Shown here in pieces: positions 225 through 34,950 of a DNA stretch of 36,367 nucleotides. The notes under the pieces were generated by a model, which was given only the letters and a program-made list of their open reading frames with translations, ran no database searches and was not told the DNA's origin. Position numbers and translations under genes: made by a program. This DNA is from Thermoflexus hugenholtzii JAD2 (GTDB lineage Bacteria; Chloroflexota; Anaerolineae; J036; Brachytrichaceae), in assembly GCA_945877855.1 (NCBI GenBank), contig CAMDWA010000028.1:1-36367 (forward strand), given 5' to 3'. Position 1 is the first letter of the stretch. Each line of letters opens with the position of its first letter.

Positions 225-1370
225 CTAAGCTTTGACCTTGGCTTTCAACTGCCCACAACCGGCGGCGATGTCGATGCCACGCCGCACGCGCACACTGTTG
301 GGCACACCGGCGGCATCGAGCACGGCGCAAAATTTGGCGATGCGGTCACGCTGCGAGGCAAGGCCATCGTAACCATTGGTGGGGTTAAGCGGAATCATAT
401 TGACGTGCAACATATGCCGTCGCTCACGACGCGGGTCGTAGGTTTGACGCACCACATTTACCAAAGCATGGGCTTGGTCAATCGTGTCGTTTACACCTTC
501 AATCAAGGCCCATTCAAAACTAACGCGGCGGTTGGTAATGTGAATATAGTCACGGGTGGCCTCGGTTAGCTCGCTCAAAGGGTAGCGGGCGTTGATGGGA
601 ACCAATTTGTTGCGCAATTCATCGGTGCCAGCATGGAGCGACACGGCCAAATTGACCTGCCCGCCCTCTTCAGCAAATTTGCGGATGCCCTGCACCAGCC
701 CAACGGTTGAAACGGTGACTTTGCGTGCGCCTAGCCCAATGCCGCCTTGATCTTCGGCCTCGGTCAAGCGCCGCACCGCCGTCATGACATGGTTATAGTT
801 GGCAAATGGCTCGCCCATGCCCATTAACACCACATTGGTTAATTGAGAATTTAAAATTGAAAATGAAGAATTAGGGGAATGCTCCATTTTTAATTTTTCA
901 TTCTCAATTCTCAATTGCCGATTGGCCCACAGCACTTGCTCAAAAATTTCGCTGGCGGTCAGGTTGCGCAAGAAGCCCATTTGACCAGTGGCGCAAAAGC
1001 TGCAATTCATGGCACAACCGGCCTGCGACGAAATACAGGCGGTGCGACGTGCGCCCTCATATTCCATCAACACGGTTTCGATCTCGCTGCCATCGGGCAA
1101 GCGAAACAACCATTTGCGCGTCCAGCCATCGCTCGATTCTTGTTGTAGCACTGGCGTTAGCCGCCCCAACACATAGGCAGCGCTCAGTTTGCCGCGCAGG
1201 TCTTTGCTCAGGTCGGTCATTTCGTCAATGCTGCCAACATTGCGTTGATATAGCCAGCGCCAAATTTGTTTGGCGCGAAAAGCCGGCTCACCCCACGCCA
1301 TTAATTGGGCCGCCAATTGCTCGCGGCTAAGGTCGTATAGGCTGGGCAGATGAAAGTGTAAGTCGTTCAT
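225..1370 (-). CDS. rlmN: Radical-SAM 23S rRNA (A2503-C2) / tRNA (A37-C2) methyltransferase RlmN
   Basis: 381-aa ORF with the radical-SAM CxxxCxxC motif (CAMNCSFCATG), the GMGEP motif and a C-terminal catalytic Cys (AAGCGQL); similarity runs along the full length. Contains an in-frame AT-rich palindromic insertion (see findings). Confidence 0.9.
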   Translation of the reverse strand: MNDLHFHLPSLYDLSREQLAAQLMAWGEPAFRAKQIWRWLYQRNVGSIDEMTDLSKDLRGKLSAAYVLGRLTPVLQQESSDGWTRKWLFRLPDGSEIETVLMEYEGARRTACISSQAGCAMNCSFCATGQMGFLRNLTASEIFEQVLWANRQLRIENEKLKMEHSPNSSFSILNSQLTNVVLMGMGEPFANYNHVMTAVRRLTEAEDQGGIGLGARKVTVSTVGLVQGIRKFAEEGGQVNLAVSLHAGTDELRNKLVPINARYPLSELTEATRDYIHITNRRVSFEWALIEGVNDTIDQAHALVNVVRQTYDPRRERRHMLHVNMIPLNPTNGYDGLASQRDRIAKFCAVLDAAGVPNSVRVRRGIDIAAGCGQLKAKVKA

Positions 1371-1390
1371 TTATTCCGACTCACCATACT

Positions 1391-1426
1391 CCACACCCCA
1401 CACCCCATACCCCACACCCCAAACCC
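1391..1426 (-). repeat. Heptanucleotide tandem repeat (CCACACC on + strand, GGGGTGT on the rlmN mRNA strand), a predicted G-quadruplex motif in the rlmN 5' leader
   Basis: Four C4 tracts (1396-99, 1403-06, 1410-13, 1417-20) plus one C3 tract, separated by 3-nt loops, with a 7-nt period. It lies 20-56 nt upstream of the rlmN ATG on the coding strand. Confidence 0.7.
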
Positions 1427-1634: not shown

Positions 1635-4478
1635 TTACCGCACCTCAATCACCCCCGCCCACCAACCTTGACCCCCCACCAACAAACGCTCGCCCGAATA
1701 AGGCAAATAGAAGCCGACACGCAACTGATACTGACCGAGCGGCACATTGTCCAAGCCAAGCATGCGCTCGTCACGCACCCATTCACCCGCCGCCCAGCGC
1801 GAGGTGGGATAAGCCCCATTGAGCGGCTGCCCATCGTTTTGCGCCACCAAGCGCCCCGTTTTGGGGTCGATGAGATGCACAAACACCACATAATCTTGCT
1901 CGATGGGCTGCAACGAGTGCCAATGGAGTGCAAGTTGCAGGTTGCAAGTTGTGGCTTTCATCTCACACGCTGTCATATCAAACCCCGCCAATTCGATCAC
2001 GCCGCCCATAACCGCACCCACCCGCACCTGCGGCGAGGCCACCGCAAAGTTGCGCGGCGGGGCATTCACCGTAATCGCGCCCAAGTCGGCCAACAGCTTG
2101 CCATCGGCCAACACCTGCAATTGATAATCGCCAGCAGCCAAATTGCGCGGTAAGCGTAATTGATAACGGTCGAGCAACGCCAAGTTGGGCGGCCATTCGG
2201 CAAAGGGCAAACGGGCGCGGGCGGGTGCGCCATCAAACAAAGTAACAAGGCTTGGCCCAAGCAACTGCACCTTGAATGTGGCATTTGGCATGGGTTGGGC
2301 TGCCCCTTGCCAACACAGGTCTAGATTCAGCAACGCCCCCGTGTTTAAAGTGCGCTCGCGCAATTGCCACGCGCTTAAGGTTGCACCATTGGGCAAATGG
2401 GTTTGGGTGCTGGTGTAGGGGGCAGCGCTGCAAATGGGCACGGCGGCTGTCACAGGGGGGCGGGGCAATGGGGCGCTCAGTTTGCCAAACGGCAACACCA
2501 GCTCTAGCCCAGCAAATTGCTCATTGGGGCCAACCCGCGGCGGCACATCTTTGGTGTTTGGGTTAAAAAAGCTGATGCCGATTTGATAATCGCCAACCGG
2601 TGGGGTTCCGGTCGGCGGCGGCAATTCGATCTGGTCAAACACAATCTCACCCACCGTCCAATCGGCGGTGGGGTAATGAAATGGGTTGGCACGCACCCAT
2701 TCGCCCGACTCGGCATGAAACAGCCGCGCTACCAACTGCAACGGCTGCCCAATCTGGGCCATCGGCTCCCAGATCACGGTTGCCACACACGGCCCTTGCA
2801 CATGACATTCGCCAAATTTTTGAGCATCGCGCACTTTGACGATGTGGGCAAAATCGGCGGCGGGCGCGGGCAATTGGGCGCGAATGGCCGCGATATCGGC
2901 CTCGCGTAGCCGCATCACACGGGCGGCAACTACGCCATCGGGCGCGGTCAAGAGCGTATCGGTTTGCCAACGGCTGGTGATGAGCGTTGAATAGGGGGCG
3001 GGCGGGTCAACGAAGGTGGGCAAATAATAGAGCGCGTCGCCCTTGGGCGGCAGCACCAGCGTCGCCCCGCCGGTCAGCCATTTCACCTGCCCAAAACGCT
3101 GGGTCAGCGCCGCCACGGTCGGCGATTGATAATGGATGGAGGCGACATACAGCGTGGTGTTTTGCACATCGGCAACACTGCGGCGCTGCAAATCTTGCCC
3201 AATCACAGTCATATTGCCATCGGTGGCAACGAATAAATCGGGCGAGTGATTCCAGCGTGAGTAGCGGTTCCATGCTAGCAAACCAAGCATCGCCGCTGCG
3301 CACATCAACCCAATTTGCAGCCAGCGCCGCGAAATAGTGTGGGGGGGTAACAAACTGTGCAACCCATTAAACAGCGTCACACCGCCATAACCAATCACCG
3401 GTGCGAGAAAGGTCCAAACACCGATCATGCGAATATTGCTAGGGATGATGTCTTTGACCGCCAAGGCGCTGGGCACAAGCATGATTACTAGCCCGGACAA
3501 CAATAACGCCCGCGTGGCATAAACCTCCGAGGTCTTAAAGACCTCGGAGGTTTTTTGTGGGATGAGTAGCGTGATTACCCCAATTAACCCAAACAATGAG
3601 AAAACTTCGCCACTCAGCGGCAGGCCCGGCAGGTTATAGCGCACATTAGGGTCGCCGAAGTTGGGCAAAAACAAGCCGAGCCAACATTGCCACCATGCCC
3701 ACGCCACCTCGCGCCAGCCCGCACTACCACTCACTTGGTCGAGCCGCGCCGAAAAAATATCGGGGTTTTGAATAAAAAACCAGCCCAATGGCGCAAACAC
3801 TATTGCCGCCACAAGCCCCATCAACCCCACCCGTGCCAAACGCTGACCACACCCACGCCGGGCAGACACAGCCAACCACACCAATAACGCCAAGGCGACC
3901 GGAATAGGAAACAAACGCGCCGCCAAATAAGTATAGGCGACCAAACCGAGAAAAACACCCGCCGCCGCAAACCAACGCCAGCGTCCCGTATTCATGCCGC
4001 GCCATAGCGCCATAAGCACCAACGCCTGCACCACCGGTTGTGAGCCAGCGCGATAGCCATAACGCGCAAAAATGAGCGGCGCAATGCTGACAGCCAGCCA
4101 AAACGCGGCGATCAGGGCGATGGCATTGCGCTGAGGGTGCGCGGCAAACAACGAGCGCGTCATTGAAAAAGTGGCGGCGATGCCGATGAGGCTGAGCATG
4201 GCCGAAGCAAGGCGCGTACCCCAAGTGGCGTTATCGGCCATCATCAACCAAGGCGCGGCCCAATATAAAAAGCCCACCTCACGCCCGACAAAGGCCCGCA
4301 CAAAAATAGGCCGGTCTCCGTTATAGGCAATATCGCGGATGTTTAACACGTAGGCGGCTTCGTCGTAATGCAGCCCATGGGCAAGGGTAGTGATATCGGT
4401 CAGGCGCAATAACGCCGCCACCAGTAAAATCAAGGTGGCAAGCCATAAGGTGGTGCGGGCATCAGGTCGGCGCAACAT
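1635..4478 (-). CDS. GT-C superfamily membrane glycosyltransferase (ArnT/PMT_2-like, GT39/GT83-like) with a large C-terminal extracytoplasmic domain
   Basis: 947 aa with about 12-13 predicted TM helices in the N-terminal 450 aa, an HYDEAAY (DE) motif in the first loop, and a long non-membrane C-terminal domain. Contains a 33-bp in-frame palindrome at 3521-3553. Confidence 0.6.
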   Translation of the reverse strand: MLRRPDARTTLWLATLILLVAALLRLTDITTLAHGLHYDEAAYVLNIRDIAYNGDRPIFVRAFVGREVGFLYWAAPWLMMADNATWGTRLASAMLSLIGIAATFSMTRSLFAAHPQRNAIALIAAFWLAVSIAPLIFARYGYRAGSQPVVQALVLMALWRGMNTGRWRWFAAAGVFLGLVAYTYLAARLFPIPVALALLVWLAVSARRGCGQRLARVGLMGLVAAIVFAPLGWFFIQNPDIFSARLDQVSGSAGWREVAWAWWQCWLGLFLPNFGDPNVRYNLPGLPLSGEVFSLFGLIGVITLLIPQKTSEVFKTSEVYATRALLLSGLVIMLVPSALAVKDIIPSNIRMIGVWTFLAPVIGYGGVTLFNGLHSLLPPHTISRRWLQIGLMCAAAMLGLLAWNRYSRWNHSPDLFVATDGNMTVIGQDLQRRSVADVQNTTLYVASIHYQSPTVAALTQRFGQVKWLTGGATLVLPPKGDALYYLPTFVDPPAPYSTLITSRWQTDTLLTAPDGVVAARVMRLREADIAAIRAQLPAPAADFAHIVKVRDAQKFGECHVQGPCVATVIWEPMAQIGQPLQLVARLFHAESGEWVRANPFHYPTADWTVGEIVFDQIELPPPTGTPPVGDYQIGISFFNPNTKDVPPRVGPNEQFAGLELVLPFGKLSAPLPRPPVTAAVPICSAAPYTSTQTHLPNGATLSAWQLRERTLNTGALLNLDLCWQGAAQPMPNATFKVQLLGPSLVTLFDGAPARARLPFAEWPPNLALLDRYQLRLPRNLAAGDYQLQVLADGKLLADLGAITVNAPPRNFAVASPQVRVGAVMGGVIELAGFDMTACEMKATTCNLQLALHWHSLQPIEQDYVVFVHLIDPKTGRLVAQNDGQPLNGAYPTSRWAAGEWVRDERMLGLDNVPLGQYQLRVGFYLPYSGERLLVGGQGWWAGVIEVR

Positions 4479-4502: not shown

Positions 4503-4625
4503 GGGAGCCGTGAGCCATGAGCTTTGAGCTTTGAGCCTTGAGCCTTGAGCTATGAGTCACAAGTCACGGCTCATGGCTCATGGCTCATAGCTCATGGCTC
4601 CAAAGCTCATGCCTCACGGCTCAAA
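4503..4625. repeat. Quasi-palindromic heptamer array (TGAGCNN x7, then its complement NNGCTCA x8) in the divergent promoter region
   Basis: Left arm tgagcca/tgagctt/tgagctt/tgagcct/tgagcct/tgagcta; the right arm is the complementary set cggctca/tggctca/tggctca/tagctca and so on. It sits between the GT gene start (4478, minus) and the CMD start (4642, plus). Confidence 0.75.
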
Positions 4626-13869: not shown

Positions 13870-14840
13870 TCACCCCCCTGATGGGTAGCACGGCACTGGC
13901 TTGTTGGATAGTGCACAACAACCTCACAAGACCAGTCCGCGTTGACGCAAATGCAGCACTCACCCTGCTATCAATTGAGGCGGTGGGCGCGTTTGTCTGG
14001 CTTGCTTGCGCGGCTCGTGCGGGGGCAGATGCCCAGCAACTGACAGTTGCTGGGCATCTACTCACCCTTAATTGATGGCAAACGTAACACTCACCACGCC
14101 ATCAATTGAGGCAGTGATGGGGTTAGTCTGGCGTGCTTGCGCGGCTCATGCGGGTGCAGATGCACCGCACCTCGCAGGTGCGGCGCATCTACTCACCCCA
14201 CGTTGGTGGCAAATGCAACGCTCACCCCGCCCTCAATTGAGGCAGTGATGGGGTTAGTCTGGCTTGCTTGCGCGGCTCGTCCGGATGCAGATGCACCGCA
14301 CCTCGCAGGTGCGGCGCATCTACTCACCCTTAAATTGATGGCAATGCAACGCTTACCCCGCCCTCAATTGAGGCAGTGGGCGCGGTCATTTGGCTTGCTT
14401 GCGCGGCTCGTGCGGGGGCAGATGCCCAGCAACTGACAGTTGCTGGGCATCTACTCACCCTTAATTGATGGCAAACGTAACACTAACCCCGCCATCAATT
14501 GAGGCAGTGACGGGGTTAGTCTAGCTTGCTTGCGCGGCTCATGCGGGTGCAGATGCGCCGCACCTGCGAGGTGCGGCGCATCTACTCACCCTTAAATTGG
14601 TGGCAAATGTAACACTCACCCTGCCCTCAATTGAGGCGGTGACGGGGTTAGTCTGGCGTGCTTGCGCGGCTCGTGCAGGTGCAGATGCCCAGCAACTGGC
14701 AGTTGCTGGGCATCTACTCACCCTTAAATTGATGGCAAATGCAACGCTCACCCCACCCTCAATTAAGGCGGTGGGCGCGGTCGTTTGGCTGGCTTGCGCG
14801 GATCGTGCGGGTGCAGATGCGCCGCACCTGCGAAGGGCGA
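13870..14840. repeat. Tandem array of about 7.4 units of ~131 bp (130-133 bp), each with two conserved hairpins and two alternating variants
   Basis: Unit starts (motif caattgagg) at 13971, 14104, 14234, 14365, 14496, 14628 and 14760. Variant A hairpin is gatgcccagcaactg-aca-cagttgctgggcatc; variant B hairpin is gatgcgccgcacct-gcg-aggtgcggcgcatc. A second hairpin, aattgatggc...gcc(a/c)tcaatt, spans the unit junctions. Confidence 0.85.
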
Positions 14841-24963: not shown

Positions 24964-24965
24964 GA

Positions 24966-25068
24966 GTGGCAGGAGGCAAGTGGCAGGTAGCAAGTGGCAA
25001 GTAAAAAGTATCTAACTACTTTGCACTTTGCACTTTGCACTTGCCACTTGCCACCTGCCACCTGCCCC
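24966..25068. repeat. Quasi-palindromic heptamer array (GTGGCAR x~7 / YTGCCAC x~7) followed by a T-tract; probable terminator or attenuator between the anti-sigma and ABC genes
   Basis: gtggcag gaggcaa gtggcag gtagcaa gtggcaa ... tttgcac x3 ttgccac x2 ctgccac ctgcccc, then tttttt and the ABC ATG at 25075. Confidence 0.75.
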
Positions 25069-25074
25069 TTTTTT

Positions 25075-25998
25075 ATGTTCGTTATCGAAACCCAACACCT
25101 GCAAAAACAATTTGGCAATAAGCTAGCCGTTGCCGATCTTACGCTCACGGTCAACTCAGGCGAGGTGTTTGGGTTTCTGGGGCCAAATGGGGCAGGTAAA
25201 AGCACCTCAATTAAAATGTTGTTGGGGTTAGTCAAACCCAGTGCGGGCAACTGTTGGGTATTGGGGTTGCCGCCCGGCAATGTGCAAGCTCGCCGCAAAA
25301 TTGGCTTTTTGCCCGAGCATTTTCGTTTTCACGATTGGCTGACCGGACGCGAGTTTCTGCATTTTCACGGGCGGTTATATGGCATGTCGGGCCAAGCACT
25401 CAAACAACGGATCGAGACATTGCTGGCGCGGGTCGCCTTGTTAGAAGCGGGCGACCGCAAATTGCAACAATATAGCAAAGGCATGTTGCAGCGCATCGGG
25501 TTGGCAATGGCCTTGCTCAATCACCCCCAAATTGTCTTTTTAGACGAGCCAACCTCAGGGCTTGACCCATTAGGCCGCCTGCTGGTGCGCGATATCATCA
25601 CGGAAATACGCAACGAAGGCACTACTGTCTTTCTAAATTCGCACTTGCTCAGCGAAATCGAAGTGACGTGTAACCGCGTGGTTTTTCTCAAGCGCGGCAA
25701 TGTGGTGCGCGAAATCAACTTAAAAGACAATGAAATTCATATCAACGAACTCGAACTAAAATTGGGGCCGGTCGATGACAGCATTTTGCAAGGGTTAGCC
25801 CAATTTGGCAGCAATGCCCATCGAGATGGCGACCTCATTCGCATGAATATTCAAGACGAAGCCAGCCTGCCACAACTGGCCCGTTGGCTGGTCGGCCAAG
25901 GTTGCGAAATTTATCGCCTCGCTGCCCATCACCCATCGCTTGAACAACTGTTTGTTGAAACCATGACCGAAGAAAATAAGTTAACCATTGATGGTTAA
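25075..25998 (+). CDS. ABC transporter ATP-binding protein (ABC-2 / exporter type)
   Basis: Walker A GPNGAGKST, signature YSKGMLQRIGLA, and Walker B IVFLDEPTSGLD. Confidence 0.85.
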   Translation: MFVIETQHLQKQFGNKLAVADLTLTVNSGEVFGFLGPNGAGKSTSIKMLLGLVKPSAGNCWVLGLPPGNVQARRKIGFLPEHFRFHDWLTGREFLHFHGRLYGMSGQALKQRIETLLARVALLEAGDRKLQQYSKGMLQRIGLAMALLNHPQIVFLDEPTSGLDPLGRLLVRDIITEIRNEGTTVFLNSHLLSEIEVTCNRVVFLKRGNVVREINLKDNEIHINELELKLGPVDDSILQGLAQFGSNAHRDGDLIRMNIQDEASLPQLARWLVGQGCEIYRLAAHHPSLEQLFVETMTEENKLTIDG

Positions 25999-26078
25999 TG
26001 ATTAATGGTCAATGATTAATGGTTAATGATTAATGGTTAATGATTAATGATTAATGATTAATGATTAATGATTAATGG
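25995..26078. repeat. Heptanucleotide microsatellite TTAATGR x12 spanning the ABC ATPase stop codon and the permease start codon
   Basis: Units counted directly as ttaatga, ttaatgg, tcaatga, ttaatgg, ttaatga, ttaatgg, ttaatga x5, ttaatgg. The ATPase TAA (25996-98) is in unit 1 and the candidate permease ATG (26068) is in unit 11. Confidence 0.85.
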
Positions 26079-26972: not shown

Positions 26973-27075
26973 GAGCATCCCCAAAAGACGTAACGCCGAA
27001 CGCACTGTCACTTTGTGTTTGAAGAGGGCAAAGCCTTCTTCAAACACAAAGTGACAGTGCGTTCGGCGAAAATAG
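26973..27075. repeat. ~100-bp palindromic MITE-like element (family 2, copy 1, inverted orientation)
   Basis: cgccgaacgcactgtcactttgtgtttgaagagggcaaagccttcttcaaacacaaagtgacagtgcgttcggcg plus the tail ggggatgc...cgtcttttgg. Near-identical to the copies at 32410 and 34717. Confidence 0.8.
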
Positions 27076-32409: not shown

Positions 32410-32510
32410 TTTTCGCCGAACTCACTATCATTTTGTGTTTGGAGAGGGCTTTGCCCTCTCCAAACACAAAATGATAGTGAGTTCGGCATTACGTCTTTTG
32501 GGGACGCCCC
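32410..32510. repeat. ~100-bp palindromic MITE-like element (family 2, copy 2)
   Basis: ttttcgccgaactcactatcattttgtgtttggagagggctttgccctctccaaacacaaaatgatagtgagttcggcattacgtcttttggggacgcccc. Confidence 0.8.
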
Positions 32511-33412: not shown

Positions 33413-34707
33413 ACTGCGACCTCATCATCCACTCCGCCGCCCAACTCGTTACCTGCGCCAGCGCCAATAACGGCCCCAAACGCGGCCATGACATGCGCGA
33501 CGTTGGCGACATCGCCAATGGCAATCATTTGCCCGCCGCCATCGCCATTAGCGATGGGCAAATTATTGCCATTGGCCCAAGTGACGATATTTGTGCCGAC
33601 TATCAGGCAAAGCACAGCATCGATGCCAGCGGCAAAACCATTTGCCCGGGGTTGATCGACCCCCATACTCACCTCATTTACGCTGGCGACCGCGTGGCCG
33701 AATGGGAGATGAAACTGCGTGGTGTCGCCTACTTAGAAATTTTGGCCGCGGGCGGCGGCATCGTCAGCACCATGCGGGCCACACGGGCTGCCGGGATAGC
33801 CGCGCTGGTGGCGCAAGCAAAGCCGCGCCTCGACACGCTGATGCGTAATGGTGTCACCACTTGCGAGATCAAAACCGGTTATGGCCTCAGCCTCGAGGCC
33901 GAATTAGCCATGTTACAAGCCATTGAACAACTGGCACAAACCCACCCATGCGATGTGCTTTTAACATTACTCGCCGCCCATACCACCCCACCCGAATTTA
34001 AAACCGACCCAAATGGCTATGTCGATTTGGTGGTTGAGCAAATCATTCCCCAAGCCGCCGCATGGTTTAATCAAAACGCCCGTGCCAACCACGCTACACC
34101 CATGGCATGTGATGTATTTTGCGAAAATCACGCCTTTGATGTGGCGCAAGCACGGCGAATATTAATGGCAGGCAAACAACATGGCCTCACACCTAAAATC
34201 CACGTCGATCAATTTACCTCATTGGGCGGGGTCGAGATGGCGCTTGAGGTCGGCGCGTTATCGTGCGATCATTTAGATGTGACCACAGCCGACGATCGGG
34301 CGCGGCTAGCGCAATCATCGGCTGTAGCAGTGGTGTTACCCGCGGTCACATTTCATCTTGGCAGCCACCAATTTGCCAACGCCCGTGCTTTTATTGATGA
34401 TGGCTGTGCACTCGCGCTCAGCACCGACCATAACCCCGGCTCGGCCCCGTGTTTGTCGCCTGCGCTCACCATGTCGATCGCATGTCGTTACCAGAAACTC
34501 AACCCTGCCGAAGCGCTCAACGCTTGCACCATCAACGCCGCCCATGCACTTGGCATCGGCAACAAAGTTGGCTCGCTCGAAATCGGCAAACAAGCCGATA
34601 TCATTATCATCAACGCGCCCGACTATCGCCACTTAGCCTATCAATTTGGGGGCAATTTGGTGCAATATGTTATTAAAAATGGGGCAGTAGCAATGGTTAA
34701 TGGTTAA
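33409..34707 (+). CDS. hutI: Imidazolonepropionase
   Basis: Amidohydrolase fold with GLIDPHTHL, KIHVDQF and the metal-ligand pattern typical of HutI. Start taken at MNCDL, overlapping the upstream stop; the track ORF starts at 33385. Confidence 0.85.
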   Translation: MNCDLIIHSAAQLVTCASANNGPKRGHDMRDVGDIANGNHLPAAIAISDGQIIAIGPSDDICADYQAKHSIDASGKTICPGLIDPHTHLIYAGDRVAEWEMKLRGVAYLEILAAGGGIVSTMRATRAAGIAALVAQAKPRLDTLMRNGVTTCEIKTGYGLSLEAELAMLQAIEQLAQTHPCDVLLTLLAAHTTPPEFKTDPNGYVDLVVEQIIPQAAAWFNQNARANHATPMACDVFCENHAFDVAQARRILMAGKQHGLTPKIHVDQFTSLGGVEMALEVGALSCDHLDVTTADDRARLAQSSAVAVVLPAVTFHLGSHQFANARAFIDDGCALALSTDHNPGSAPCLSPALTMSIACRYQKLNPAEALNACTINAAHALGIGNKVGSLEIGKQADIIIINAPDYRHLAYQFGGNLVQYVIKNGAVAMVNG

Positions 34708-34716
34708 TGAATTTAT

Positions 34717-34816
34717 TTTCGCCGAACTCACTATCACTTCGTGTTTGGAGAAGGCAAAGCCTTCTCCAAACACAAAGTGATAGTGAGTTCGGCATTACGT
34801 CTTTTATGGTCACCCC
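34717..34816. repeat. ~100-bp palindromic MITE-like element (family 2, copy 3)
   Basis: ttttcgccgaactcactatcacttcgtgtttggagaaggcaaagccttctccaaacacaaagtgatagtgagttcggcattacgtcttttatggtcacccc. Confidence 0.8.
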
Positions 34817-34876: not shown

Positions 34877-34950
34877 CGCCCTCAGAGAGACTCGAACTCC
34901 CGACCTAGGCATTAGAAGGGCCGCGCTCTATCCACCTGAGCTATGAGGGC
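34877..34950 (-). tRNA. tRNA-Arg (anticodon TCT), no encoded CCA
   Basis: Minus-strand sequence GCCCTCATAGCTCAGGTGGATAGAGCGCGGCCCTTCTAATGCCTAGGTCGGGAGTTCGAGTCTCTCTGAGGGCG. Clover-leaf with a 7-bp acceptor stem, GCTC/GAGC D-stem, T-arm GGGAG-TTCGAGT-CTCTC and anticodon loop CTTCTAA. The anticodon stem has only 3 Watson-Crick pairs (C:U at 27:43 and 31:39). Confidence 0.7.

What the first reader, a model, noticed from the sequence alone, without database searches (positions are those of the whole stretch)
840..917. In-frame 69-bp AT-rich palindromic insertion inside rlmN, bounded by 10-bp perfect inverted repeats
Within the otherwise ~58% GC rlmN coding sequence there is a ~26% GC block, aattgagaat...attctcaatt. 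It has perfect 10-bp inverted termini (841-850 and 900-909) plus internal inverted symmetry (tgaaaatgaagaatt / aatttttcattctca). It is exactly 23 codons, so the frame is preserved, and it encodes RIENEKLKMEHSPNSSFSILNSQ in a surface loop between the radical-SAM core strands (between ...VLWANRQL and TNVVLMGMGEP). E. coli RlmN is ~13 residues shorter at this point. This looks like a small mobile palindromic element that has inserted in-frame into an essential-type gene, analogous to Rickettsia palindromic elements.
Basis: seen in the sequence. Interest (0 to 1): 0.6.

Follow-up and report, generated by a model that had tools for sequence, protein, structure and literature searches.

The report
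In-frame heptamer-repeat hairpin inside rlmN
The AT-rich palindrome inside this Chloroflexota rlmN gene is real, but it is an old, in-frame pair of inverted 7-base repeat arrays of a kind that is normally intergenic and widespread, sitting in a tolerant protein loop, and not a recently inserted discrete transposon.

Summary
Window 841-916 (GC about 0.23-0.29 in a 0.54-GC gene) is a hairpin with 32-nt arms, 84% complementary, in frame in rlmN (225-1370, minus strand).

On the coding strand these are (AATTGAG)-like units, a 6-nt spacer, then (CTCAATT)-like units.

It adds about 17 residues to a connection that is 10-12 residues in most bacteria. AlphaFold2 places it between helix alpha1 and strand beta2 of the radical-SAM core.

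It is not a fresh insertion. A sister species (86-87% protein identity) carries a homologous insert with a conserved 5' arm and a GC-richer (AACSCTC)n 3' arm. Within the species, two 3'-arm alleles (about 60% identical) sit on backbones that are 94-97% identical.

This species has about ten times more period-7 arrays than unrelated genomes, and many are intergenic inverted pairs. A metagenome scan found at least 67 (AATTGAG)n...(CTCAATT)n hairpins. Most are intergenic and a few are in frame in real genes.

Related Chloroflexota carry other heptamer hairpins in the same RlmN loop and in a GT2 loop.

Verdict: this is an RPE-like in-frame passenger, built like the known inverted heptameric repeats. 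Whether it is mobile is unresolved.

The parts
225..1370 (-). rlmN CDS (381 aa), intact: radical-SAM CX3CX2C at C119/C123/C126, plus C112 and C372, the equivalents of E. coli C118/C355
   Evidence: ORF list. Homologues and Pfam domains. Invariant columns. PDB matches 6fz6 and 3rf9.
841..916 (.). Whole element: inverted pair of heptamer arrays (5 units, 6-nt spacer, 5 units). It is AT-rich and hairpin-forming.
   Evidence: Sequence. TRF period-7 rows 841-864 and 900-916. Inverted repeats. Fold. Lag-7 autocorrelation 0.64.
882..916 (-). Coding-strand 5' arm: AATTGAG AATTGAG AATGAAA AATTAAA AATGGAG, encoding (Q)LRIENEKLKME. AF2 models it as an extension of helix alpha1 (helix 139-163). It is identical in all strains of the species and 28/31 identical in the sister species.
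   Evidence: The reading frame gives LRIEN, and the third unit departs from AATTGAG exactly where a TGA would fall.
876..881 (.). Spacer at the tip of the hairpin. It is 3 nt shorter in the other allele and in the sister species.
841..875 (-). Coding-strand 3' arm: CCTAATT CTTCATT TTCAATT TTAAATT CTCAATT, encoding PNSSFSILNSQ(L). AF2 models it as a low-confidence coil (residues 164-178). It is dimorphic within the species and is (AACSCTC)n in the sister species.
   Evidence: The CTCAATT array has no stop codon in any frame and encodes LNSQFSI.
841..850 (.). It pairs with 900-909.
900..909 (.).

Best explanation
What it is. The block is an in-frame resident copy of a heptanucleotide-repeat hairpin: two inverted tandem arrays of 7-nt units, (AATTGAG)n, a spacer, then (CTCAATT)n. 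This is the same kind of structure as the many intergenic inverted heptamer arrays of this Chloroflexota genome, and as the (AATTGAG)n hairpins found in many metagenome contigs.

When it arose. It entered, or was seeded and expanded in, the alpha1-to-beta2 connection of the RlmN radical-SAM core before this species split from its sister species. It lengthened a 10-12-residue connection by about 17 residues.

Why it persists (three reasons).
- The connection tolerates variable length in this clade. It is inferred to lie on the face of the partial barrel away from the active site.
- The frame in use reads the AATTGAG arm as LRIEN, and the third unit is degenerate (AATGAAA) exactly where a perfect array would place an in-frame TGA.
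- The CTCAATT arm has no stop codon in any frame.

How it evolves. Since then it has behaved as a repeat array under a frame constraint. The 5' arm now extends helix alpha1 and is conserved. The 3' arm encodes a disordered loop and turns over quickly, with two alleles that recombine among strains. Only length changes in multiples of 3 nt are seen.

Function. I infer that it is passenger DNA with no conserved RNA or protein function.

What is shown and what is inferred. Shown: the anatomy, the age, the allele pattern, the stop-codon logic, membership of the class, and the position between two secondary-structure elements. Inferred: neutrality, the permissive face of the barrel, and the way it arrived.
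For: Anatomy.
- Period-7 structure and inverted arms are shown.

Insertion relative to the ancestor.
- The connection is 10-12 aa in about 50 diverse bacteria and in L016, L017, L020 and L030. It is 28-29 aa in the window clade.

Age and turnover.
- L002 and L009 (86-87% aa identity) have the same insert with a conserved 5' arm (28/31 nt, against about 79% identity for the rest of the gene) and an (AACSCTC)n 3' arm.
- Within the species, alleles A and B are 60-64% identical over 47 nt on backbones that are 94-97% identical. The alleles do not follow the backbone. For example win/L001 are 96.7% identical with different alleles, and win/L006 are 94.0% identical with the same allele.

The hairpin is not conserved.
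- MFE is -25.8 (z = -6.7) in allele A, -15.7 in allele B and -13.3 (z = -1.8) in the sister species.

Genome context.
- Period-7 arrays occur at 5.2 per 10 kb in this species and 0.5 per 10 kb in 1.2 Mb of other genomes.
- Many are intergenic inverted pairs.

Class membership.
- In the metagenome scan, 67 of 122 sites were period-7 (AATTGAG)n...(CTCAATT)n hairpins with unrelated spacers and flanks. Most had stops in all frames.
- About 20 contigs hold several such arrays, against none in 1.2 Mb of control loci.
- Translated copies are annotated in Symploca, Thermoanaerobaculia and Bacteroidales.

Other in-frame cases.
- GT2 of the same species has (AATCCTC)4, 9 aa longer than orthologues that are 90% identical.
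- An alpha-2-macroglobulin in L146 carries one immediately after its A2M domain.

Other heptamer hairpins in the same RlmN loop.
- They occur in L004, L018 and L027. L015 has a direct period-7 array only.

Stop-codon logic. Structure: helix 139-163, coil 164-178 with block-mean pLDDT of about 62-72, strand 179-182.

Literature.
- Heptameric SSRs are over-represented in bacteria, and 70-75 inverted pairs per Xanthomonas genome have been described (PMC4692102).
Against: - Only about 64 kb of this species was available, so the genome-wide copy number of AATTGAG-type arrays is unknown.
- No orthologue close enough to show a clean empty site was found. The nearest lineage without the periodic insert (L003, 73% aa) has a different 23-aa loop.
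- The strong conservation of the 5' arm at the DNA level (31/31 within the species, 28/31 between species) could reflect a function rather than structural integration.
- The position on the far side of the barrel rests on general radical-SAM topology, not on a measured distance to the substrate RNA.
Confidence: 0.7

Rival explanations
1. A discrete miniature transposable element (MITE/RPE-type) transposed into rlmN as a unit and is still recognisable by its terminal inverted repeats.
For: Perfect 10-nt termini and overall palindromy. AT-rich composition foreign to the gene. Related sequences occur at many loci in other genomes and at several loci per contig. In-frame copies exist in other genes.
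Against: - The termini are simply the outermost repeat units.
- Copies elsewhere share no spacer or flank, and the number of units per arm ranges from 1 to 13.
- There is no target-site duplication. The flanks are GGTT|...|GCCG, and the only 'duplication' is a further heptamer unit.
- Permuted units (AGTTAAG, TGAAGTA, GAATTAG) also occur as inverted arrays, so there is no single element sequence.
- The insert is shared with a sister species at about 79% nt identity, so it is old.
- There is no second copy in the 36-kb window.
Confidence: 0.1
2. The arrays arose purely in place. A chance AT-rich heptamer in the loop expanded by replication slippage, and the inverted arm arose by strand-switch or hairpin-templated copying, with no input from elsewhere in the genome.
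For: - Array turnover and unit-number changes occur between close strains: GT2 has 4 units against about 3.5 or fewer, and intergenic arrays have 12 against 16 and 4.4 against 7.4 units in L001 against L025.
- Polymerase slippage has been proposed in the literature for heptamers (PMC4679880, PMC4692102).
- Different lineages have different units in the same loop.
- Spacers flip orientation between samples, which shows that the arms interact.
Against: - The same unit recurs at separate loci in the same contigs and across at least four phyla.
- Related units occur in two genes of this species.
- The arms are 84% complementary, not 100%, so a single templated event is not visible.
- The within-species dimorphism of 17-19 differences in 47 nt, on backbones that differ by 3-6%, is hard to obtain by point mutation in place.
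Confidence: 0.3
3. The hairpin, or the encoded loop, is functional. The mRNA stem-loop might tune rlmN translation or stability, or the extra helix and loop might add a contact for the RNA substrate.
For: Strong predicted hairpin in this allele. The 5' arm is more conserved than the rest of the gene. The same loop is repeatedly occupied in related lineages.
Against: - Hairpin strength collapses in allele B and in the sister species (z = -1.8 in the sister) while the gene stays intact.
- The 3'-arm peptide is not conserved.
- Several relatives have the minimal 10-12-aa loop.
- No Rfam family matches there.
- The model has low confidence in the loop.
Confidence: 0.1
4. There was no insertion, only an ancestral long loop that drifted to low GC. 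Alternatively, the block is an assembly artefact.
For: The sister species encodes a homologous loop with GC 0.46.
Against: - The basal length is 10-12 aa across phyla.
- Period-7 structure is present in all seven sequences of the clade.
- The same block appears in independent assemblies from ENA, JGI, Logan and NCBI.
Confidence: 0.03

Closest known systems
Inverted pairs of heptameric simple-sequence repeats: GGGAATC in Xanthomonas and GGGGAYT in Nostoc (Rehm et al. 2015, PMC4692102). Also the heptanucleotide long SSRs of Mrazek et al. 2007, as cited in that paper and in PMC4679880.
   Same: Both are tandem arrays of a 7-nt unit with a few units per array. Two arrays often lie in convergent orientation and can form stem-loops. 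Unit number varies between close relatives. There are many copies per genome, mostly intergenic.
   Different: The unit here is AT-rich and cannot form a G-quadruplex. This copy is in frame inside a housekeeping gene. The host is a Chloroflexota bacterium. This genome uses many different units rather than one dominant unit.
Cyanobacterial STRR heptanucleotide repeats (Mazel et al. 1990, recalled from memory; mentioned for Calothrix PCC 7601 in PMC4692102)
   Same: Both are dispersed tandem heptamers in a filament-forming lineage. Arrays in this species include ATCCCCA and AATGGTC, which from memory are close to STRR1 CCCCAAT and STRR2 TTGGTCA.
   Different: STRRs are described as intergenic direct repeats in heterocystous cyanobacteria. 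Here the host is Chloroflexota, the arrays are inverted, and the copy is coding.
Rickettsia palindromic elements (RPE; summarised in PMC10969869)
   Same: Both are palindromic repeats found in frame inside unrelated, still intact protein genes, where they add a peptide segment thought to be compatible with the fold.
   Different: RPEs are about 150 bp and fall into ten sequence families, each with a conserved consensus and a conserved encoded peptide. They are confined to Rickettsia. This element is 76 bp, made of heptamer units, with no conserved spacer. Most copies of its kind are intergenic.
TAACTGA heptamer direct repeats of marine Beggiatoaceae, cyanobacteria and Bacteroidetes (MacGregor 2015, PMC4679880)
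   Same: One heptamer unit is shared by distant phyla with no evident transfer mechanism. Stop codons within the unit restrict which frames and orientations can be coding.
   Different: Those are direct repeats, mostly just upstream of start codons. Only one inverted set is reported there.
REPIN and MITE hairpin repeats (PMC3116915, PMC10969869)
   Same: Both are short, hairpin-forming, dispersed repeats. The window itself holds a family of this type, with three copies of about 75 nt at 26994, 32414 and 34720.
   Different: REPINs and MITEs have a conserved full-length consensus and, where known, a cognate transposase. The heptamer hairpins share only the repeat unit.

Membership tests
Heptameric SSR / inverted heptamer-array pair | Tandem head-to-tail copies of a 7-nt unit | tested here: met
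   TRF gives period 7 at 841-864 and 900-916. Lag-7 autocorrelation is 0.62-0.64 against a background of 0.26. The block parses into five units per arm.
Heptameric SSR / inverted heptamer-array pair | Two arrays of complementary units in convergent orientation, able to form a stem-loop | tested here: met
   Arms of 32 nt are 84% complementary. MFE is -24.5 to -25.8 kcal/mol, with z = -3.6 and -6.7.
Heptameric SSR / inverted heptamer-array pair | Many arrays per genome, mostly intergenic, with unit number varying between close relatives | tested here: met
   Density is 5.2 arrays per 10 kb against 0.5 in controls. Intergenic pairs are shown. Unit numbers are 12.3 against 16.3 and 4.4 against 7.4 in L001 against L025. 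Only about 64 kb of the species was sampled.
Rickettsia palindromic elements (RPE) | Member of one of the RPE sequence families (about 150 bp, conserved consensus, Rickettsia) | tested here: not met
   The host is Chloroflexota. The element is 76 bp of heptamer units. Copies share no spacer. No RPE consensus was aligned directly.
Rickettsia palindromic elements (RPE) | Palindromic and inserted in frame in intact genes, encoding a recurring peptide | tested here: met
   rlmN is intact. The peptide pattern LRIEN...NSxFSILNSQL recurs in L146, L161, L126, L160 and L196, and in database ORFs. This is similarity of behaviour only.
MITE | Terminal inverted repeats flanked by a target-site duplication | tested here: not met
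   The termini are repeat units. The flanks GGTT and GCCG are not duplicated. Metagenome copies have unrelated flanks with no duplication visible in 12-nt flanks.
MITE | Multiple copies with a shared full-length consensus, and a related autonomous IS | tested here: inconclusive
   No other copy lies in the window. Copies elsewhere share only the units. The parent IS cannot be assessed without the genome.
REP/REPIN | Conserved REP 16-mers in inverted doublets, associated with a RAYT transposase | not tested
   The available sequence was not searched for a RAYT. The unit structure differs from the REP doublets described in PMC3116915.
Known structured RNA family | Match to an Rfam covariance model at the gathering score | tested here: not met
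   The only Rfam hit in the whole window is a tRNA at 34877-34950.

The most novel reading that the evidence does not exclude
Inverted heptamer-array hairpins may be a self-propagating class of minimal dispersed DNA. In that reading only the 7-nt unit is inherited, not a full-length element. The class would spread within genomes and between phyla (Chloroflexota, Cyanobacteria, Acidobacteriota, Bacteroidota, phage-like contigs). It would repeatedly colonise permissive protein loops in frame, making it a free-living counterpart of the Rickettsia palindromic elements. The RlmN alpha1-beta2 loop and a GT2 loop of Thermoflexales-like Chloroflexota would be recurrent landing sites.
Probability: 0.25. 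Interest if true: 0.75.

Novelty: new variant of a known kind. Interest (0 to 1): 0.5.

Why it matters
Heptameric repeats are the most over-represented long simple repeats in bacteria, yet their origin, spread and function are still unknown (PMC4692102, PMC4679880).

This locus gives a dated, orthologue-anchored case inside a conserved enzyme. The ancestral state, the time of arrival, the turnover of each arm and the coding constraint (TGA avoidance) can all be read directly here.

It also shows that such hairpins can become protein sequence, as a helix extension plus a disordered loop, in a housekeeping radical-SAM methyltransferase. The same loop is occupied by different heptamer hairpins in related lineages.

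If the class proves to be mobile, it would extend in-frame colonisation by palindromic elements, the RPE phenomenon, beyond Rickettsia.

In practice, these blocks can mislead gene callers. Many short 'hypothetical proteins' in databases are translations of such hairpins.

Tried and rejected
- Other copies in the window. The termini-plus-gap pattern and the 10-mer with one mismatch found only the rlmN site and chance hits.
- A single hairpin-templated (quasipalindrome) mutation creating allele A from allele B. I considered this after and dropped it. The arms are 84% complementary, not 100%. Both alleles occur on both backbone sublineages.
- AATTGAG as a uniquely special unit. Permuted controls in viral contigs also gave inverted heptamer arrays: AGTTAAG in 4 of 4 loci, TGAAGTA in 8 of 8, and GAATTAG in some. 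ATAGTAG gave 19 chance hits with no periodicity. GGTTAAT and GGGAATC gave none.
- L177 (Por_Secre_tail domain) as an in-frame case. The Pfam profile aligns through the site, so I rejected it.
- L159 as an in-frame case. The site probably lies between two genes of a high-GC contig, so I rejected it.
- The peptide-profile search returned only 26-77-aa hypothetical ORFs among its best 120 hits. It therefore gave no census of true in-frame insertions. A first attempt failed on the minimum query length.
- Literature. Full-text searches for AATTGAG/CTCAATT dimers and for heptanucleotide repeats in Chloroflexi found nothing relevant. Elhai et al. 2008 (SDR elements) was not held.
- Rfam showed no RNA family at the site.
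Full report
**Observation**

Window 225-1370 (minus strand) is an intact rlmN gene of 381 aa. Inside it, 841-909 is an AT-rich block. GC is 0.23-0.28 there against about 0.54 for the gene.

The block has perfectly complementary 10-nt ends and near full-length dyad symmetry: arms 841-872 and 878-909, 84% complementary. It folds at -24.5 to -25.8 kcal/mol, well beyond shuffled controls. It encodes RIENEKLKMEHSPNSSFSILNSQ, which is absent from E. coli RlmN (13 residues shorter here) and from structure 6fz6 (17 residues shorter).

On the coding strand the block reads AATTGAG AATTGAG AATGAAA AATTAAA AATGGAG, then a 6-nt spacer, then CCTAATT CTTCATT TTCAATT TTAAATT CTCAATT. These are two inverted arrays of five heptamer units, covering 841-916.

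Lag-7 autocorrelation is 0.64 against a window mean of 0.26. The only other places in the window that reach this value are intergenic heptamer arrays.

**Is it an insertion?**

The segment between the conserved W/Y of helix alpha1 and the [ST]N[VL]V strand is 10-12 residues in about 50 bacteria of several phyla. It is also that short in some Thermoflexales-like relatives (L016, L017, L020, L030). In the wider Thermoflexales-like clade it ranges from 10 to 47 residues, and it is 28-29 here. The net gain is therefore about 17 residues.

AlphaFold2 was run on a 25-sequence alignment (mean pLDDT 81.5). It models the 5'-arm peptide as an extension of helix 139-163. It models the 3'-arm peptide as a coil at residues 164-178 with block-mean pLDDT of about 62-72, leading into strand 179-182.

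In the radical-SAM partial barrel, helix-to-strand connections lie at the end opposite the active site. That is general knowledge of the fold and was not measured here.

**Age and evolution**

The organism is a Chloroflexota bacterium. GTDB titles are 'uncultured Thermoflexus sp.' and 'Chloroflexota bacterium REEB501'.

A sister species (L002, L009; 86-87% aa identity, about 79% nt identity) has a homologous insert of the same number of units. Its 5' arm is nearly unchanged (28/31 nt). Its 3' arm is (AACSCTC)n, with GC 0.46 and a weak hairpin (z = -1.8).

Within the species there are two alleles of the spacer plus 3' arm.
- Allele A is in the window and in L006/L007, and has a strong hairpin.
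- Allele B is in L001, L008 and L025.

The two alleles are 60-64% identical over 47 nt, on gene backbones that are 93-98% identical. They do not follow the backbone tree. That pattern indicates recombination or conversion, not stepwise drift.

The insert also predates the split of the two species.

**Genome context**

Period-7 arrays are about ten times denser in this species than in 1.2 Mb of other genomes: 5.2 against 0.5 per 10 kb. Period 7 is the dominant repeat period here, whereas periods 9 and 12 dominate elsewhere.

Many arrays are intergenic inverted pairs with other units.
- Window 4505-4623.
- Window 24965-25070, followed by a T-run.
- L001 5347-5539 and 6507-6570.
- L025 7523-7869.

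Unit numbers differ between strains.

A second coding case lies 4.5 kb away in L001 and L025. (AATCCTC)4 sits in a variable loop of a GT2 glycosyltransferase and gives ...VSNPQSSILNPQS.... This is 9 residues longer than in orthologues that are 90% identical.

**The wider class**

I scanned metagenome contigs for the two 10-nt termini 40-60 nt apart. Of 122 sites, 67 are clear (AATTGAG)n-spacer-(CTCAATT)n hairpins in contigs with flank GC of 0.3-0.7. Most have 3-8 units per arm (range 1-13), with unrelated spacers and flanks.

Most have stops in every frame, so they are intergenic. About 20 contigs hold further arrays of the same unit nearby, against none in 1.2 Mb of control loci.

A peptide profile of the translated element retrieved 253 database ORFs. 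The best 120 are 26-77-aa 'hypothetical proteins', including ORFs from Symploca (a cyanobacterium), Thermoanaerobaculia and Bacteroidales.

A few copies are in frame in long ORFs. The clearest is a 1926-aa bacterial alpha-2-macroglobulin, where EIENGELRMENYPGAAANSQFSIFNSQL follows the A2M domain directly.

Control scans of viral contigs with permuted units (AGTTAAG, TGAAGTA, GAATTAG) also returned inverted heptamer arrays. ATAGTAG returned only non-periodic chance matches. The class is therefore general, and AATTGAG is one of many units.

**The same loop in other lineages**

Other Thermoflexales-like lineages carry their own period-7 sequence in the RlmN alpha1-beta2 loop.
- L004 has GATTTGC/GCAAATC.
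- L018 and L027 have CGGATTT/AAATCCG.
- L015 has a direct (CCAAACT)n array.

These lineages are interspersed on a rough NJ tree with lineages that have the minimal loop. The L004-type unit (ACGATTT/GCGATTG, peptide DDLRL) also occurs in the GT2 loop of another relative, L241.

This means either several independent gains or an old gain followed by turnover and loss. In both cases these two loops act as sinks for heptamer hairpins.

**Why it is tolerated**

A perfect (AATTGAG)n array has TGA in frame at every third unit in all three frames. The longest open reading is LRIEN. rlmN uses exactly that frame (TTG AGA ATT GAG AAT), and the third unit is AATGAAA, which removes the TGA.

The complementary (CTCAATT)n array is open in all frames and encodes LNSQFSI. 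This explains the recurring NSxFSILNSQL peptides.

**Interpretation**

The best-supported reading (confidence about 0.7) is an old, in-frame heptamer-array hairpin that persists as passenger DNA in a permissive connection. Its 5' arm is now part of helix alpha1, and its 3' arm is free to turn over.

How it arrived is unresolved. Recurrence of the same unit within contigs and across phyla points to some form of dispersal. The lack of any shared spacer, flank or target duplication, and the existence of many unit types, argue against a classical MITE/RPE. These features fit slippage combined with strand-switching.

Evidence that the arms interact in vivo comes from metagenome copies of one locus whose spacers are reverse complements of each other in different samples (L101 against L114/L137; L143 against L189).

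A regulatory or structural function is unlikely, because the hairpin and the 3' peptide are not conserved.

**Comparison with what is known**

The nearest described objects are the inverted pairs of heptameric SSRs of Xanthomonas and the heptamer repeats of Nostoc (PMC4692102), and the cross-phylum TAACTGA repeats (PMC4679880). The in-frame behaviour parallels Rickettsia palindromic elements (PMC10969869), but the sequence-family definition of RPEs is not met.

I found no description of AATTGAG-type hairpins or of heptamer repeats in Chloroflexota in the searchable library. I rate this a new variant of a known kind, of moderate interest.

Noticed in passing
window 26994-27068, 32414-32488, 34720-34794 (a related-looking hairpin at 107-147): Three intergenic copies of a near-perfect hairpin of about 75 nt (CGCCGAACTCACTATCA...TGATAGTGAGTTCGGCA). 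Mean identity is 87%. Arm substitutions are compensatory, and the central AAA/TTT is flipped between copies. This is a genuine dispersed REP/MITE-like family in the same window.
   Followed up: partly
window 13947-14830: Tandem array of a 131-nt unit, 6.7 copies, 83% matches. The unit length is not a multiple of 3. Each unit contains a GC-rich hairpin and a CAATTGAGGC motif. Its nature is unknown.
   Followed up: no
window 4505-4556/4564-4623; 24965-25002/25018-25070; 20798-20820/20844-20866: Intergenic inverted pairs of short tandem repeats: heptamers GAGCCTT/ATGGCTC and AGTGGCA/TGCCACT, and 9-mers TATCCTGCC/GGATAGGCA. The second pair is followed by a T-run like an intrinsic terminator. The third lies between convergent genes.
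   Followed up: partly
window 1384-1426; 25987-26077; 34692-34709: Direct heptamer arrays. (CCCCACA)5 lies 14 nt upstream of the rlmN start codon. (ATTAATG)13 lies between two genes. (AATGGTT)2.6 overlaps a stop codon. From memory, some units resemble cyanobacterial STRR1 and STRR2.
   Followed up: no
window 1929-1951 (also L001 26-48, L008 521-545): (TGCAAGT)3.3, a self-complementary heptamer array inside the 947-aa PMT_2-like ORF. It encodes ...ATTCNLQLALH... and is conserved among strains.
   Followed up: no
L001 6203-6234 / L025 6127-6158 (GT2 gene L001:5515-6501, minus strand); L242 2447-3406; L241 199-1206: In-frame heptamer arrays in a variable loop of a GT2 glycosyltransferase. L001 has (AATCCTC)4 and strain L242 has fewer units. 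L241 has a different unit family (ACGATTT/GCGATTG) that forms a -29.9 kcal/mol hairpin. The same unit type occurs in the rlmN loop of L004.
   Followed up: partly
L101 5092-5153 vs L114 3425-3493 and L137 8738-8806; L143 846-925 vs L189 10785-10864: The same (AATTGAG)n hairpin locus, with identical flanks, occurs in different metagenome samples with the spacer in opposite orientation. This indicates inversion by recombination between the arms.
   Followed up: partly
L146 10746-10826 (ORF L146:8774-14551, minus strand): An AATTGAG/CTCAATT hairpin in frame in a 1926-aa bacterial alpha-2-macroglobulin. It lies immediately after the A2M domain (Pfam 1150-1238; insert at residues 1241-1268).
   Followed up: partly
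Protein database hits P0259-P0378: Many 26-77-aa 'hypothetical proteins' in public collections are simply translations of heptamer hairpins, for example NSQFSILNSQFSIL runs. They are spurious gene calls over intergenic repeats.
   Followed up: partly
L014 10418-10558; L005/L012 rlmN loops: Other RlmN alpha1-beta2 loops are expanded by 8-9-nt tandem repeats (GAAGGTTC[A], encoding EGSESS repeats; GGCGACAAG-type, encoding DKV/EKG repeats). The loop therefore accepts several repeat periods.
   Followed up: no
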